NCBI GenBank assembly: GCA_017499595.2 | Contig: CM039003.1 | Coordinates: 2,976,001 to 3,040,000, forward strand | Direction of reading: 5' to 3' | DNA length: 64,000 bases | From: Psilocybe cubensis | Lineage: Eukaryota | Part shown: positions 10,949-15,470 of the stretch, one piece after another | Numbering within the stretch: position 1 is the first letter of the stretch | Layout of the letters: each line of letters opens with the position of its first letter | Made by a program: the position numbers and the translations under genes | The notes under the pieces: model-generated | Told to the model about the DNA's origin: nothing | The model's input: only the letters and a program-made list of their open reading frames with translations | Database searches by the model: none

Positions 10949-12711
10949 GATAGGGGTATTCAAGGAGTGCCATTTGAGCAGCGGTCGCAGTCGGTACGGC
11001 GCGTTTACCGTGGTTCCGTAGATTGGGCAACTCTATATACGCGATACGCAGCAATCCGGCCGATGTTGTTTGTCAGCTTCGTATCTATGCATGTCAGCGT
11101 CAGCGCCAGTGCTGCACTGAGCAGAAATCTTTCAACTGGGGCCCTGTGCTTTGACTGAGCAGCTTTGCTTTTCGGATCTGGAGCACACCGCGCTGCTATC
11201 GCCTTGACTGCGGAGGACGTGGACGTGGACGTGGACGGAGCGCAAGTGCTGAGTGCAGCGCAACAGTCTACCTTTTCAGTGTATCTGTGGAGTACCCCGC
11301 CACCCACGACACGACGGCATCCACGTATGAACACATGACATATGCGGCTCCTGTGGACGGCTGAGCACAGGCCATGTGCATTTCAATGGTACACGATCAT
11401 TCCAGTGTCAAGCGGTCGATGTCGACTTGCTGCGTAATGTCCGGCATGAAGTGCACAGCACTTCCAGAATATACACAGAGAGACTTCTAGTTGGGGGGAA
11501 ACAATGGAATGGAATGGTGCTGTGCAAAGCTTGATAGTGCTTTATGATAAAAAGGAGGGTACCTCGTGATGAACATTTAGACGCCAGCGCCTGCAAAGGG
11601 ATTCTCGCGATGAACAAGGAGATTAATTGGCGCGCGTATTTAATGAAAGTGCGCAGATATCGATGCTTGAAGAGGAACTCACGGCTTATGAACTGAAAGA
11701 GGACCGGTAATGGTATGGCTGTGTAGCGAATGTGTTGGAAGCTGTGAACAACGCCGAGAAGCGCTCGTAACTCTTGTCGACGCCGGTGTGGAGAGTGCGA
11801 GGGGTAATATATTAAAGATGCCTATTCTTATCGACGACCATTGGTAAGGATGAGAAAGCAGCACGTCTCCGCGAGAGTGCAACACCCGAAATATCGGATC
11901 AGGCGACGAGCACAAGACGTCATACGCATGCAACCCAAGTATGGGCGTCCAATAACATCGCGGAAAGGCCGAAGAAAACTCTGAACAGAACAATGGGCCG
12001 TCGGGGGCATAAATCCGTTGACAAATGACACTGAGTAAGAGTAACCACTGGGGAGGTTGAGGTTGATTATCGCTGGCTTGAGCTCCTATTCGAGTGCAAT
12101 TTTGCCGCCCGGCGCCCATTGAGGAGGACGGGGAATGTTTTCCGATTTCACGGGATATCATCGGTAATGTTACCGATGCCCTACGCCCATGGACGAGGTA
12201 GATTGACAGGGAAGAGGTACGGACTTGCCGCATTTGTCGACGCCGAACTCATAAGAAGGCGGGAAGCGCGCCTCGTGTGATGGGCGGGGGTCAGGTGGGC
12301 GCTGGGCGGAGGGCATGGGGCTGTGTTGGGCGCCCTTCGGGGGGCGGGGTGTGCCTAAAAGGGTTAGACGTCGGGTTGCCCATCAAATGCCTTCCATGTG
12401 AACGCCGTGAATAGCGGGGATGAATGTGTCATCTGTACAGCATGGTTACAGGGACCGATATGACTCGGTCTGAGAAACGGTGGGTCATACACAGAAAAAA
12501 GAGAGAAAAAACACGAATTTTGAGGGAGATTGGGGATGGAAATGTGGGCGTTGGAGACTGCGAACTGCGCTGGGCAGACGGGACAAGTAGGTGGAAGCTT
12601 TAGCGCAGCTGGGTGAAGGGTTATGCAGACGGATTAGAATGATGGGCGGGGAGATTTGTCAGGGCGGCACCGCACTTTGGCTGAGTCTGAAAAAAAAAGC
12701 TGTGCCGGGTG

Positions 12712-12718
12712 TATATAA
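12712..12718 (+). promoter_or_regulatory. TATA box of the bZIP gene
   Basis: TATATAA followed about 30 nt later by a CT-rich tract. Confidence 0.65.
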
Positions 12719-12841
12719 GCCGGATCGAGTCAGGACGATGGTTAGCCCGTTCTTTCTTCCCCAACCCCCATCTCGACTTGGCCGGAGTCACATCTCTGTC
12801 CAGTCCCCCCTAGCCCTCCTCAGCACACCACTGAGGCATTT

Positions 12842-13199
12842 GTGAGTCACAGTTTCCTCTCCAAATCTGATACTTTGGCCTACGTGTGCAATTGCCTTGT
12901 GCCACAGCGATAACTCGCTTATTGTATCATACACGTATACGCACTTTCGAGTCAGAAATGCAAATGGCTTGTGCATCTGCGACTTCCATGTCCGCGAACG
13001 AGTCGGCCGTGAGCACGTCTCCGGCGACAGCGTTGAACAAGGCTTATCAGATGGAGGTGGACCCCCGCGAATCCCCCGCGCGGGAGGCTCAGCTCTCCTT
13101 ACCTGCACAGGGCGCCCATGAATTATCCTCTTCCTCCGGGCGCACATCAGGGCCAAGCAATGATCATTTGGACAAGGAACTGATACCATCCACATCTAG
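12842..13199 (+). other. Predicted 358-nt 5' leader intron of the GCN4-like gene
   Basis: Donor GTGAGT at 12842, branch-like CTGAT at 13180-13184, acceptor CTAG ending 13199. Confidence 0.6.
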
Positions 13200-13309
13200 G
13201 CTTTCAAGGCTACCGTCCGAGGTGCCTTCGCCCAATACATTGACCAGTAACCCACACCCCGTCGCAATTCCGGTCCACCAGAACAACCTCACTACATACA
13301 CAAGTCAAG

Positions 13310-13327
13310 ATGTTCACCTCTTTGTGA
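13310..13327 (+). promoter_or_regulatory. uORF1 (MFTSL*)
   Basis: aagATG TTC ACC TCT TTG TGA, -3 A context, out of frame with the bZIP ORF; first AUG after the predicted leader intron. Confidence 0.7.
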
Positions 13328-13432
13328 ATAACTCGGCTTCTTCCACCTCGTCTACGGTTACTCGTACCTCTGGTCAACAGTCAACTCCACCCGAAACATC
13401 TGTTTCGAGTTTTTCTCAACCCCTCCATCACC

Positions 13433-13441
13433 ATGTCCTAA
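13433..13441 (+). promoter_or_regulatory. uORF2 (MS*)
   Basis: accATG TCC TAA, -3 A context, out of frame. Confidence 0.65.
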
Positions 13442-13510
13442 CTCACCCAATTCGTCGTCCTCGGACGTCTAGTACCATCTTCCAATCCTCCACGGATTTA
13501 GCAGCACATT

Positions 13511-13600
13511 ATGGAATCCCCCAGATACTGCCACCAGCACCACGCCCAACACCGCGCAATACAGCTCCAGTCTACCAGCAACCAAGCACTGATTCTATGA
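13511..13600 (+). promoter_or_regulatory. uORF3 (29 aa) overlapping the main AUG (ATGA overlap)
   Basis: attATG GAA TCC CCC...CTA TGA; its stop (13598-13600) overlaps the in-frame ATG at 13597. Confidence 0.65.
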
Positions 13601-14694
13601 TCAAATCTTATCTTAACATGCTTTACAACAAGCCGACAGAAACACCAGAAGTCGCCCCCAGCGCACCACCAATGTCTGCGTCTACATCCACGTCGTCCAC
13701 GTCTGCGGCGGGGCTTGACGCTCCCGTTGAGTTCATCACTCAAGATCAGCTCAATGATATCGCCGCGATCATCGGTAAGGATACTGCTTCGTGCTATGGA
13801 ATCACGGTGACTCATCTCTTCGGTTCCGTCTTCGCAGCGTCTTCTCCTGAGTTCCGCGACCAGGACACCTTCGACGCCTTTATGTCTACCTCCCCACTCC
13901 TGCCTGAGCTCGACTATGGCAGCTCGCCCTCCTTCGATACTCCTTACAACGAGTTCCTCACCACCCCACTCTTCCAGGACGAGAACGTCCCTGTCATGGA
14001 CGACTTTATGAACGAGCCTTTGTTCCCTATGTTGGAAGAGCCTGAGGTTTCGATTCAGTCGAAGGCCGTCGAGACTTTCGTGCCCACTCTCCAGCAGGAA
14101 CTCTACTCTATTTCGCCGTCGGCGACCCCCATCACTCCAGCCCTCCATTCCTTCGACACCTTCGAGACGGTTCCCATCTTCGAACCGAGTAGCGTGGCTA
14201 CTACTCTCCCTGTCACCGTCCCCGCTCAACCTCCTGTCGCACCCAGCCATCCTGCGCCTCGTCGCTCTAAGGCCACTGGCATCCGCAAGGGCGTCACTCC
14301 CGACAGCCTGCTCGACGAGTCCGCGCCGACGCAGCCGCGCAAGTACACGACGCCCTCTGCGACATCGCGCAAGGAGCTCCCGGCCGTGTTCGCGCGCAAG
14401 CGCTCGCGGTCGACGGCATTCGGGGAGGAGGAGGATCAGCTTGAGGAGATCCCGCCCGACGCGACCGAGGCGCAGTTGATCGAGATCAAGCGCAGGCAAA
14501 ATACGGTTGCTGCGCGCCGCAGCCGCAAGCGCAAGCTGGAGCAGTTCCAGAAGCTGGAGAACTCGCGCAACGAAGAGAGGCGGCTGAAGGAGCAGTGGAA
14601 GGAGCGCGCCAACGTGCTCTTGGGCATGCTCCGCAGCAAGGGCGTCAAGCATCCCGACTTCCCAGAGGATGTTCTTGAATATGCTGATGCGTAA
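13597..14694 (+). CDS. cpcA: GCN4/CpcA (cross-pathway control)-type bZIP transcription factor; AUG start at 13597 or 13618, with possible N-terminal extensions
   Basis: Basic region KRRQNTVAARRSRKRKLEQFQKLE matches the GCN4-family NTxAARRSRxRK signature; acidic/aromatic activation region; 63-nt intron 13775-13837; uORF-bearing leader. Confidence 0.85.
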   Translation: MIKSYLNMLYNKPTETPEVAPSAPPMSASTSTSSTSAAGLDAPVEFITQDQLNDIAAIIGKDTASCYGITVTHLFGSVFAASSPEFRDQDTFDAFMSTSPLLPELDYGSSPSFDTPYNEFLTTPLFQDENVPVMDDFMNEPLFPMLEEPEVSIQSKAVETFVPTLQQELYSISPSATPITPALHSFDTFETVPIFEPSSVATTLPVTVPAQPPVAPSHPAPRRSKATGIRKGVTPDSLLDESAPTQPRKYTTPSATSRKELPAVFARKRSRSTAFGEEEDQLEEIPPDATEAQLIEIKRRQNTVAARRSRKRKLEQFQKLENSRNEERRLKEQWKERANVLLGMLRSKGVKHPDFPEDVLEYADA

Positions 14695-15470
14695 ATTTGT
14701 TATATTTCTCTACATTATCATCTTTTTTTTTTCGTCCATCCTATATTCCCTATACCTTTTCTTCGTTCTTCCTCCCTTCTGTGTTTTGCTTTTGTTTTAT
14801 AGTCTCTCAAAATGTCTGAATAGCGTATGTCTACTGGACTCAAACGACGACCGTATATTTTTCAAGTCGTCTTTTATAGCCCTTCGATGCTTCCCCCCTC
14901 CCCATCCATTGTAATATCTTTTTATCATCATCATCATTCCCCAACCACTTGCTTCGAAGCATCGTCGTATCCCCCTTCCCTGATCGAAATCATTCCAAGA
15001 ATCGTATACAAACCCATCTCACTGTATGCTCACATCCTATGAAATCTATATCGTACACTTGTTTACACCCCCCACGAAGAAGTCTGTTGTTCAGTACTCA
15101 GTGCCTATCTTCTACATATTATACATTCGTGCTTTGTGATCTTGTGCTCTTTTGTGTCTTTAGTCTCTACGCTTCTCGTTGTATTAAAGTTGTTTGAAAG
15201 AAGATGATTGTTGTCGCTATTGGCGTTGTTTGTCTTGTAACTGTTTTGTGCGATTCGCAATTATAAATTTGTTTGATCGAAGAAAATGCTTATTAATATT
15301 ATGTATGAAACCCCGGGCTGAATTACTCTGCTCTCGAATGAACAAAGATGGTGATAATATAATTTATTATAAGTTGCTGCGCGAACAGGCTCTACGTCCA
15401 AGGAGTCTACGACAGGAGAGATGGATGACCTTGTCCCCACTTCGGAATAGTGCTGTCATGCTGATGGCTA

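What the first reader, a model, noticed from the sequence alone, without database searches (positions are those of the whole stretch)
12738..13620. Stop-free in-frame leader of the GCN4-like gene: candidate non-AUG N-terminal extension
Seen: splicing 12842-13199 joins exon 1 (frame ...QSPLALLSTPLRH, open back past the TATA box) in frame to the bZIP ORF, so the whole leader lacks an in-frame stop. In-frame near-cognate codons precede uORF1 (CTG 12831, junction TTG, GTG 13222, acaTTG 13240), and an in-frame ATG at 12738 lies at about the expected TSS. The extension encodes a motif-like DLAAHYGIPQILPPAP that overlaps uORF3 (dual coding). Known: Neurospora cpc-1 uses near-cognate starts in a long stop-free leader to bypass its uORFs. 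Inference: the same logic operates here across a leader intron.
Basis: partly seen in the sequence, partly recalled or inferred. Interest (0 to 1): 0.7.

Follow-up and report, generated by a model that had tools for sequence, protein, structure and literature searches.

The report
GCN4-like gene leader with coding intron
The leader of a mushroom's GCN4-type stress regulator is protein-coding, as already published for related fungi, but its leader intron also carries a conserved ordinary start codon, so the longer protein may be made simply by leaving the intron in.

Summary
An RNA-derived contig joins 12841 to 13200 (GT..AG, 358 nt), in frame with the bZIP ORF. The leader has no in-frame stop. 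The out-of-frame ATGs at 13310, 13433 and 13511 are real uORF starts.

The core idea is already published. Ivanov et al. 2017 (PMC5487733) describe this architecture for 27 Agaricomycete cpc-1 homologues: a stop-free leader, a 4-7-codon uORF1, a long last uORF, one conserved AUU, and a conserved patch under the last uORF. This gene is another member.

Five of five spliced orthologous transcripts have in-frame stops in exon 1, and ATG 12738 is not conserved. The conserved near-cognates are ATT 13267 (40/40 loci) and GTG 13222 (39/40).

The intron appears new against the passages I read. In 31 of 31 unspliced loci, the first ATG after exon 1 lies inside the intron, in the main-ORF frame. From there to the 3' splice site that frame has 0 stops, against 83 and 97 in the other two frames. 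Eleven of 17 orthologous transcript contigs keep the leader intron although the CDS intron is spliced; their first AUG opens the whole 498-539-codon ORF.

Intron retention may therefore give an AUG-started long isoform that bypasses the uORFs.

The parts
12712..12732 (+). TATA box (12712-12718) followed by GAGTCA (12727-12732), within a promoter block AAAAGCTGTGC..TATATAA..(T)GAGTCA shared with related loci
   Evidence: Sequence; alignment by eye of 170 nt upstream of the 5' splice site in 31 loci. Function is inferred.
12738..12740 (+).
   Evidence: (RNA contig starts at 12784)
12784..12841 (+). Leader exon 1, the part covered by RNA; the true 5' end is unknown. It ends in the conserved CTGAGGCATYY and contains no ATG
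   Evidence: record 1
12842..13199 (+). Leader intron, 358 nt: GTGAGTCA 5' splice site, branch site CTGAT at 13180-13184, 3' AG at 13198-13199. Both spliced and unspliced forms are present in RNA contigs
   Evidence: joint 12841->13200; low-depth contigs on 12830-13162 and 12878-13124; the 5' splice site is conserved in 31/31 unspliced loci
12958..13199 (+). Intron-borne ORF in the main-ORF frame, with ATGs at 12958 and 12964 (the latter aligns with the conserved 'MA[S]S' start). It is the first ATG downstream of exon 1 and has no stop before exon 2
13200..13617 (+). Exon-2 leader: 139 stop-free codons in the main-ORF frame (the N-terminal extension)
13222..13224 (+). GTG, a position-conserved near-cognate codon (18 GTG, 19 TTG, 2 CTG in 39 of 40 loci), 14-17 codons 5' of the ATT
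13267..13269 (+). ATT, invariant in 40/40 loci, G at -3, 43 nt 5' of the uORF1 ATG. It matches the single conserved NCC reported for Agaricomycetes
   Evidence: paper passages
13310..13327 (+). uORF1 (MFTSL*, 5 codons, +1 frame). The ATG is invariant in 40/40 loci although the overlapping main-frame residues vary (D/N/H, V/A/G)
13433..13441 (+). uORF2 (MS*, 2 codons, +1 frame). The ATG is kept in 39/40 loci while the overlapping residues vary
13511..13600 (+). uORF3, the long last uORF (29 codons, +1 frame, A at -3 and G at +4). Its stop overlaps the in-frame ATG 13597 and ends 17 nt before ATG 13618
13495..13542 (+). Conserved patch DLAAHYGIPQILPPAP in the main-ORF frame, overlapping uORF3
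   Evidence: Note that the loci were fished with this motif
13618..14694 (+). Main ORF: conserved ATG 13618 (..NYLNML..), exon to 13774, 63-nt in-frame CDS intron 13775-13837, exon 13838-14694. The bZIP basic region lies about 14488-14544
   Evidence: (CDS intron spliced in X1 and X2)

Best explanation
This is the Agaricomycete orthologue of cpc-1/GCN4, a bZIP regulator.

The dominant mRNA in the laid runs lacks a 358-nt leader intron. Its leader carries three +1-frame uORFs of 5, 2 and 29 codons, which should impose GCN4-type reinitiation control on ATG 13618. This control is inferred by analogy.

The same leader is open in the main-ORF frame, and at least its last ~65 codons are under protein-coding selection. 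An N-terminally extended protein is therefore made. Two routes to it exist, and my data do not separate them:
1. On the spliced mRNA, initiation at conserved near-cognate codons ahead of uORF1 (ATT 13267, perhaps GTG 13222). This is the published model.
2. On mRNA that keeps the leader intron, ordinary initiation at the intron's own ATG (12958/12964). It is the first AUG of that transcript and runs without a stop into the whole ORF (557 codons here), bypassing all uORFs.

Comparative evidence shows that selection keeps route 2 available. I infer that splicing versus retention of this intron switches the mRNA between uORF-controlled and uORF-independent translation.
For: Shown:
- Spliced joint with GT..AG, and separate contigs holding intron sequence, in RNA-derived contigs.
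- The uORF ATGs are conserved as nucleotides while the overlapping residues change: 40/40, 39/40 and 43/44 loci.
- ATT is invariant in 40/40 loci although the preceding Ala codon varies at its third base. GTG/TTG/CTG is kept in 39/40.
- Omega is 0.22-0.30 between uAUG2 and the main ATG, with a third-position excess, against 0.38 for main-ORF codons 1-40.
- The 5' splice site CTGAGGCAYY|GTGAGTCA is present in 31/31 unspliced loci, and intron lengths are 214-391 nt.
- In 31/31 loci the first ATG after exon 1 is in the main-ORF frame, 80-157 nt into the intron.
- From that ATG to the 3' splice site there are 0 stops in that frame, against 83 and 97 in the other sense frames over 2065 codons. There are 19 different lengths, and every ATG is in frame with the main ORF.
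- The antisense frames hold 102, 83 and 92 stops.
- Of 17 orthologous contigs whose CDS intron is spliced: 8 keep the leader intron with its 5' splice site, 3 start inside it, 5 are leader-spliced and 1 is probably spliced.
- In all 11 retaining contigs, the first ATG of the contig opens a 498-539-codon ORF. In all 6 spliced ones, the first ATG is uORF1.

From the literature: the uORF/NCC architecture and the ~120-aa extension were reported for 27 Agaricomycetes (PMC5487733, passages).
Against: - The intron ORF shows little amino-acid constraint: omega is 0.64-0.81 and changes are nearly flat over codon positions. Selection may only keep it open, not preserve its sequence.
- In the window's own species the spliced contig has a word depth of 1254, against 15.9 and 15.3 for the intron-holding contigs. 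Retention may be minor there, or plain pre-mRNA. Contig depth is a poor measure.
- Invariance of ATT and of the GTG/TTG/CTG codon argues that near-cognate initiation matters in its own right, so the AUG route may be secondary.
- Assembled contigs can merge isoforms.
- The metagenome contigs are unnamed and not phylogenetically independent; they fall into about 20 clusters by eye.
- No translation data were available.
Confidence: 0.7

Rival explanations
1. One reading: the extension starts at non-AUG codons in exon 1 or at the splice junction (CTG 12831, junction TTG), or at ATG 12738, and is read across the spliced junction.
For: In this window exon 1 joins exon 2 in frame without a stop. The peptide SRLSRLP right at the junction is strongly conserved.
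Against: - Five of 5 leader-spliced orthologous transcripts have an in-frame stop 0-20 codons 5' of the junction.
- Intron length modulo 3 varies between loci.
- ATGs near the TATA box in L001, L003 and L005 are out of frame, and most loci have none.
- The RNA contig starts at 12784, downstream of ATG 12738.
- Conservation around the junction is largely nucleotide-level: branch site CTRAY, pyrimidine tract, AG and CARGGC.
Confidence: 0.08
2. Only near-cognate initiation (ATT 13267 and/or GTG 13222) on the spliced mRNA makes the extension, as published. Intron-holding RNAs are unproductive splicing intermediates. The open intron frame merely avoids harm, such as truncated products or NMD, when they leak to ribosomes.
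For: - ATT is kept in 40/40 loci and GTG/TTG/CTG in 39/40.
- Coding-type selection is strongest downstream of these codons.
- In vitro and in vivo support for NCC use comes from N. crassa (abstract and passages of PMC5487733).
- The intron contigs have low depth in X1 and X2.
Against: - In 31/31 loci the first ATG is in frame with 0 stops, and frame is kept through 19 different lengths. That is more than damage avoidance requires, although it is compatible with it.
- Eleven of 17 CDS-spliced contigs hold the intron.
Confidence: 0.2
3. There is one ordinary gene: a ~557-aa protein from ATG 12958/12964. The 'uORFs' are chance out-of-frame ATGs inside the coding sequence, and the 358-nt splice is aberrant. 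This is how several genome annotations read it.
For: Public models and ORF calls of 500-605 aa start with MA(S)S.... The frame is open from 12871.
Against: - The spliced form is the high-depth contig.
- Splice signals are conserved in 31/31 loci.
- Six orthologous transcripts are leader-spliced.
- The three out-of-frame ATGs are kept as nucleotides while the residues over them change (NAT.GNN).
- Tyr is TAT in 43 of 44 loci where TAC would be synonymous.
Confidence: 0.04
4. The leader is not translated in the main-ORF frame at all. Openness and conservation reflect RNA-level or uORF-peptide constraints.
For: Synonymous divergence is low in the upstream leader (dS 0.15-0.33 against 0.54-0.58 in the uAUG3-to-main-ATG segment and main ORF), which shows nucleotide-level constraint.
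Against: - There is an excess of main-frame third-position change and omega of 0.22-0.30 in the last ~65 codons, although uORF3 is read in another frame.
- The published analysis reaches the same conclusion.
- No consensus RNA structure was found around the 5' splice site.
Confidence: 0.04

Closest known systems
cpc-1 homologues of Agaricomycetes as described by Ivanov et al. 2017, mBio 8:e00844-17 (PMC5487733; abstract and passages read, supplements closed)
   Same: - 3-4 upstream AUGs, with a uORF1 of 4-7 codons (5 here).
- A long last uORF in good context that ends near or overlaps the main ORF (29 codons here).
- No in-frame stop between uORF1 and the main AUG.
- One position-conserved NCC, mostly AUU, at least 31 nt 5' of uORF1 (ATT 13267, 43 nt here).
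- An extension of ~120 aa (117 codons from the ATT here).
- A conserved patch within 50 aa of the main AUG, under the last uORF, selected in the main frame.
   Different: The passages I read mention no leader intron, no in-frame AUG and no retained-intron isoform, and they speak of a single conserved NCC. Here a second conserved GTG/TTG/CTG lies 14-17 codons further 5'. The leader intron also holds a conserved in-frame AUG-headed ORF. Fig. S5 of the paper could not be seen and may show more.
Neurospora crassa cpc-1
   Same: A GCN4 homologue with uORF control, a stop-free leader in the main frame and a conserved N-terminal extension. Near-cognate starts ahead of the inhibitory uORF bypass it.
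   Different: Per the paper's passages, N. crassa has two uORFs, a leader of more than 700 nt, three deeply conserved NCCs (ACG, AUU, CUG), uORF2 in the -1 frame, and explicitly no other in-frame AUG. Here there are three uORFs, all in the +1 frame, and an in-frame AUG supplied by a retained intron.
Saccharomyces cerevisiae GCN4
   Same: A bZIP of the GCN4/Jun type: the family profile hits GCN4 and c-Jun chains at E about 1e-6. Short uORFs precede the main ORF.
   Different: According to the paper, Saccharomycotina lack the N-terminal extension. GCN4 having four uORFs and no leader intron is recalled, not from a call.
C/EBP-beta LAP/LIP isoforms (named in the discussion of PMC5487733)
   Same: One bZIP mRNA family yields isoforms with different N-termini, and start-site choice is coupled to a uORF.
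   Different: There the choice is among downstream in-frame AUGs on one mRNA. Here the extra coding sequence lies upstream, and access to an AUG depends on whether an intron is kept.

Membership tests
cpc-1/GCN4-type regulator with the Agaricomycete leader architecture (Ivanov et al. 2017) | C-terminal bZIP with a GCN4/Jun-like basic region | tested here: met
   A profile of 21 orthologues hits c-Jun and GCN4 chains at E 7e-7 to 4e-6. Twelve of 21 members match Pfam bZIP_2 at E<=0.001. The window's own protein alone stays below Pfam cut-offs (17-19 bits) and hits GCN4 at E 0.005.
cpc-1/GCN4-type regulator with the Agaricomycete leader architecture (Ivanov et al. 2017) | Short uORF1 (4-7 codons), plus a long last uORF in good context that ends near or overlaps the main ORF | tested here: met
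   uORF1 at 13310-13327 has 5 codons. uORF3 at 13511-13600 has 29 codons, A at -3 and G at +4, and ends 17 nt before ATG 13618. The ATGs are conserved in 40/40 and 43/44 loci.
cpc-1/GCN4-type regulator with the Agaricomycete leader architecture (Ivanov et al. 2017) | No stop in the main-ORF frame between uORF1 and the main AUG | tested here: met
   The frame is open from 12871 to 14694. Fifty-five of 59 related loci are open from the GTG/TTG/CTG codon to the main ATG; 2 are cut and 2 are broken.
cpc-1/GCN4-type regulator with the Agaricomycete leader architecture (Ivanov et al. 2017) | Position-conserved near-cognate codon at least 31 nt 5' of the uORF1 AUG | tested here: met
   ATT 13267 lies 43 nt 5' of ATG 13310 and is ATT in 40/40 loci.
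cpc-1/GCN4-type regulator with the Agaricomycete leader architecture (Ivanov et al. 2017) | The extension is conserved as protein in the main frame where it overlaps the last uORF | tested here: met
   Omega is 0.22 (uAUG2..uAUG3) and 0.30 (uAUG3..main ATG). Position differences are 40/25/83 and 112/74/200.
cpc-1/GCN4-type regulator with the Agaricomycete leader architecture (Ivanov et al. 2017) | Translation actually starts at the near-cognate codon, and the main ORF is derepressed on amino-acid starvation | not testable with these tools
   This needs ribosome profiling, reporters or immunoblots. None were available.
Leader-intron retention switch (alternative splicing that changes the first AUG of an mRNA) | Both the spliced and the intron-holding forms exist as RNA | tested here: met
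   Window species: a spliced contig plus contigs on 12830-13162 and 12878-13124. Orthologues: of 17 CDS-spliced contigs, 11 hold the leader intron, 5 are leader-spliced and 1 is probably spliced.
Leader-intron retention switch (alternative splicing that changes the first AUG of an mRNA) | Retention changes which ORF the first AUG opens | tested here: met
   In the 11 retaining contigs, the first ATG opens a 498-539-codon ORF in the main frame. In the 6 spliced contigs, the first ATG is a uORF1 of 5-8 codons. In the window the equivalents are ATG 12958 and ATG 13310.
Leader-intron retention switch (alternative splicing that changes the first AUG of an mRNA) | The intron-holding mRNA is exported and translated, and the ratio of forms is regulated | not testable with these tools
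   Only contigs were available. There were no raw reads, conditions or translation data.

The most novel reading that the evidence does not exclude
The long leader intron of Agaricomycete cpc-1/GCN4 genes is a conserved coding intron that acts as a splicing switch. When spliced, the master regulator of amino-acid control is under uORF/eIF2-dependent translation. When retained, the first AUG starts a ~220-residue-longer protein with no uORF control. If so, part of what was published as a conserved non-AUG extension in Basidiomycota is reached from an ordinary AUG.
Probability: 0.45. Interest if true: 0.7.

Novelty: new variant of a known kind. Interest (0 to 1): 0.5.

Why it matters
GCN4/cpc-1 is the textbook case of uORF-based translational control. 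The stop-free, partly coding leader in filamentous fungi is a published curiosity explained by non-AUG starts.

What may matter is the second layer: a conserved intron whose retention hands the ribosome a normal AUG upstream of all uORFs.

That would couple splicing to general amino-acid control in mushrooms. It would also give a simpler origin for the extended isoform. It explains why public annotations of this gene disagree, at about 300-340 aa against 500-605 aa. It is directly testable with long-read RNA-seq, initiation-site profiling and tagged alleles.

Tried and rejected
- Own genome: none is held for this window.
Fig. S5 and S1B, which show the Basidiomycota leaders, were not seen.
- Sequencing runs: no listed holder is on record as RNA. 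X1 and X2 were treated as RNA-derived only because their contigs lack both introns that X4 and X5 contain.
- Parts of the stretch without cover in X1 and X2 (for example upstream of 12784) are not used as evidence.
- A short proximal intron, 12842-12907 (a conserved YAG|CGA about 25 nt after a conserved GCCTACGTG). No transcript shows it. The 8 retaining contigs with the 5' splice site, L011 and X1 record 2 are contiguous there.
- Consensus RNA structure around the 5' splice site: 0 predicted pairs.
- An antisense gene as the cause of the open intron frame: rejected, with 102, 83 and 92 antisense stops.
- Pfam on the 220-aa upstream peptide: 0 families at E<=1.
- The third shuffle test (spliced leader) crashed on a script bug and was not rerun.
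- Papers: the Ganoderma GCN4 paper PMC10563202 has no occurrence of uORF or intron. PMC7049704 only notes a Cryptococcus bZIP with two uORFs reminiscent of Gcn4.
- Searches listed no paper on leader-intron retention in a basidiomycete GCN4/cpc-1. Only listings were seen, apart from the three papers named above.
Full report
**What is at the coordinates.** On the + strand one frame is open from 12871 to the stop at 14692-14694, a run of 607 codons.
- It ends in a bZIP region.
- It is interrupted by a 63-nt in-frame CDS intron at 13775-13837.
- GTGAGT begins at 12842 and AG ends at 13199. Joining 12841 to 13200 reads ...PLRHL|LSRLPSEV... in frame.
- Out-of-frame ATGs at 13310, 13433 and 13511 open uORFs of 5, 2 and 29 codons, all in the +1 frame. 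The last one stops at 13598-13600.

**RNA evidence.** One search found six runs and four were laid.
- X4 and X5 cover the stretch in one piece and so behave as DNA.
- X1 and X2 hold contigs that lack the CDS intron, so they derive from RNA, although the record only guesses so.
- X1 record 1 (1925 nt, word depth 1254) lies on 12784-12841, then 13200-13772, then 13837 onward. The skipped 358 nt end in GT..AG.
- Short low-depth contigs lie on intron sequence: X1 record 2 on 12830-13162 (depth 15.9) and X2 record 3 on 12878-13124 (depth 15.3).
- Contig depth is a rough figure only.

**Identity.**
- The window's protein alone scores below Pfam cut-offs and hits GCN4 chains at E 0.005.
- A profile of 21 orthologues hits c-Jun and GCN4 at E about 1e-6.
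- Twelve of those 21 match bZIP_2.
- The named relatives among the 120 listed hits (663 hits at E<=0.001) are all Agaricales. The closest is a Psilocybe cyanescens protein at 59% identity.

**What is already known.** I read the abstract and passages of Ivanov et al. 2017 (PMC5487733). They report the following for 32 Basidiomycota cpc-1 mRNAs, 27 of them Agaricomycetes:
- 3-4 upstream AUGs;
- a uORF1 of 4-7 codons;
- a long last uORF that sometimes overlaps the main ORF;
- no in-frame stop between uORF1 and the main AUG;
- a single position-conserved NCC (mostly AUU) at least 31 nt 5' of uORF1;
- an extension of about 120 aa;
- a conserved patch within 50 aa of the main AUG, under the last uORF, selected in the main frame.

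The window fits every point. In the main text the word 'intron' occurs once, in the methods. Four literature searches listed nothing on leader-intron retention in these genes.

**Orthologous proteins.**
- Among the 120 listed proteins, lengths fall into two groups, about 220-350 aa and about 440-605 aa.
- Forty-nine of the 120 match my junction pattern. In all 49, the residues before it are the intron-encoded ...ELIP.T.
- Aligning the 66 proteins of 440 aa or more shows the leader peptide is as conserved as the main ORF. Examples are ELIPSTSRLSRLP, VAI, SQDVH.FVN, THPIRRPRT, STDLAAHYGIPQILPPAP and NYLNML. The weaker motifs QMEVD and MA(S)S lie in the intron part.
- Many of these are plain ORF calls. 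The window's own entry (568 aa) reads through the CDS intron. They therefore show only that the frame is open.

**Orthologous DNA and cDNA.** A scan with the leader alignment, using a pattern built on the HYGIP patch, returned 59 metagenome loci. Because of that pattern, the patch itself is not independent evidence. Forty-three of the loci, plus the window, are non-redundant at 95%.

Conservation of start codons:
- The uORF1 ATG is present in 40/40 loci, although the residues over it vary (GAT, AAT or CAT, followed by GTN, GCA or GGT).
- The uORF2 ATG is present in 39/40 loci, with the same behaviour.
- The uORF3 ATG is present in 43/44 loci. Tyr is TAT where TAC would be synonymous.
- All three uORFs are in the +1 frame, with lengths of 4-8, 2-3 and 13-47 codons.
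- uORF3 often ends 2 or 17 nt before the main ATG, and overlaps it in one locus (L003).
- ATT at the window's 13267 is ATT in 40/40 loci, with G at -3, while the neighbouring Ala codon varies at its third base.
- Fourteen to 17 codons further 5', 39 of 40 loci have an in-frame GTG (18), TTG (19) or CTG (2). It is often preceded by ACG. This is the window's GTG 13222.

**The intron is conserved and coding-competent.**
- In all 31 unspliced loci with enough upstream sequence (the window included), exon 1 ends in CTGAGGCAYY and the intron begins GTGAGT (usually GTGAGTCA).
- A CTRAY branch site and a YAG follow 214-391 nt later.
- The peptide conservation of 'ELI/ELT' is this branch site. The Leu codon is always CTG or CTA.
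- In 31/31 loci, the first ATG downstream of exon 1 lies 80-157 nt into the intron and is in the main-ORF frame.
- From it to the 3' splice site, that frame holds 0 stops in 2065 codons. The other sense frames hold 83 and 97. The antisense frames hold 102, 83 and 92.
- The ATG-to-splice-site distance takes 19 different values, and in every locus the ATG remains in frame with the main ORF.
- The loci are related to one another, about 20 clusters by eye. Synonymous divergence between the compared pairs is 0.06-1.5, so stops and frameshifts had time to arise.

**Transcript isoforms.** Seventeen loci lack the CDS intron, so they are transcripts. For some this rests on direct comparison with a genomic relative: L021 with L020, L026 with L025, L035 with L029, and L057 with L046/L052. 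For the others it rests on the absence of the 17-25-codon insert seen in relatives, which is an inference.
- Five are leader-spliced (L016, L026, L027, L034, L040) and L058 probably is.
- Eight keep the leader intron with its 5' splice site inside the contig (L008, L021, L023, L024, L033, L035, L037, L057).
- Three start inside the intron (L011, L028, L031).
- In all 11 intron-holding contigs, the first ATG of the contig opens a 498-539-codon ORF in the main frame.
- In all 6 spliced contigs, the first ATG is a uORF1 of 5-8 codons.

**Selection along the leader.** I ran Nei-Gojobori counts on 15 partly overlapping pairs.

| Region | Omega | Differences at codon positions 1/2/3 |
|---|---|---|
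| Intron ORF, first half | 0.81 | 81/48/64 |
| Intron ORF, second half | 0.64 | 100/97/118 |
| Junction to ATT | 0.58-0.74 | not listed |
| ATT to uAUG2 | about 0.55 | not listed |
| uAUG2 to uAUG3 | 0.22 | 40/25/83 |
| uAUG3 to main ATG | 0.30 | 112/74/200 |
| Main ORF codons 1-40 | 0.38 | 117/88/193 |

- Clear protein-type selection covers the last ~65 leader codons.
- Further 5', the frame is kept open but the residues drift.
- Synonymous divergence is lower upstream (0.15-0.44 against 0.54-0.58), which points to nucleotide-level constraint.
- This counts against a sequence-specific function of the intron-encoded peptide. It fits selection for an open, AUG-headed frame.

**Exon 1 and ATG 12738.**
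- All five clear spliced orthologues have an in-frame stop 0-20 codons before the junction. An extension read from exon 1 is therefore not conserved.
- Exon 1 holds no ATG in the orthologous transcripts.
- ATG 12738 lies 26 nt after the start of the TATA box.
- ATGs at similar places in L001, L003 and L005 are out of frame, and most loci have none.
- The RNA contig starts at 12784, which does not fix the transcription start.

**How it most likely works.**
- Shown: there are two mRNA forms. Conserved uORF ATGs and conserved near-cognates sit on the spliced form. A conserved first AUG in frame sits on the retaining form. The proximal extension is under coding selection.
- Inferred: GCN4-type reinitiation control operates through uORF1, uORF2 and uORF3. 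The extended protein is made from ATT or GTG on the spliced mRNA, from the intron AUG on the retaining mRNA, or from both. The splicing choice acts as a switch.
- Rivals are weighed in their own section.

**Limits.**
- No raw reads, conditions, transcription-start data or translation data were available.
- The contigs are unnamed, and assembly can mix isoforms.
- The pairs used for omega overlap.
- The paper's supplementary figures were not seen.

Noticed in passing
window 12880-12910; alignment A3 columns ~92-135: About 40 nt into the leader intron, a nearly invariant GCCTACGTG is followed about 25 nt later by YAG|CGA. It is conserved across most of 26 loci and is read in different frames in different species, so it is a nucleotide-level element. 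It could be a proximal 3' splice site or a regulatory site. No transcript uses it and no consensus fold was found.
   Followed up: partly
window 12690-12735 and the equivalent stretch of L001-L057: The promoter block AAAAGCTGTGC..TATATAA..(T)GAGTCA, and a second (C)AGAGTCA inside exon 1, are shared by many loci. GAGTCA resembles half of the GCN4/AP-1 site, which hints at autoregulation. The resemblance is recalled, not tested.
   Followed up: no
window 13775-13837: The CDS intron is 63 nt, in frame and stop-free, so ORF callers read through it. The database entry for the window's own protein (568 aa) and the Psilocybe cyanescens model (565 aa) both contain intron-encoded residues.
   Followed up: yes
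window 13597-13600: The uORF3 stop TGA overlaps an in-frame ATG (ATGA), 21 nt before the conserved main ATG 13618. The same extra ATG occurs in L009 and L058 only.
   Followed up: partly
window 14053-14208: In DNA runs X4 and X5, a second short contig (659 and 737 nt) matches 14053-14087 and 14140-14208, with a 52-nt skip and unrelated flanks. It is a partial look-alike elsewhere in that genome, and is unexplained.
   Followed up: no
window 12553-14772: The runs differ from the window at up to 18 single bases and two 1-nt indels, so they come from another strain or allele. Differences inside the coding sequence include 13638 A>C and 14673 T>G.
   Followed up: no
L036 1-1442; L059 2950-3328: Two of 59 loci have the HYGIP patch but an in-frame stop or unrelated sequence just upstream. 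They may be paralogues, pseudogenes or assembly chimeras.
   Followed up: no
window 13498-14709 (- strand) and 12788-13195 (- strand): Long antisense open frames of 403 and 135 codons lie opposite the gene. The antisense frames of the intron ORF are not open in the other loci, so these look like by-products of the sense-strand composition.
   Followed up: partly
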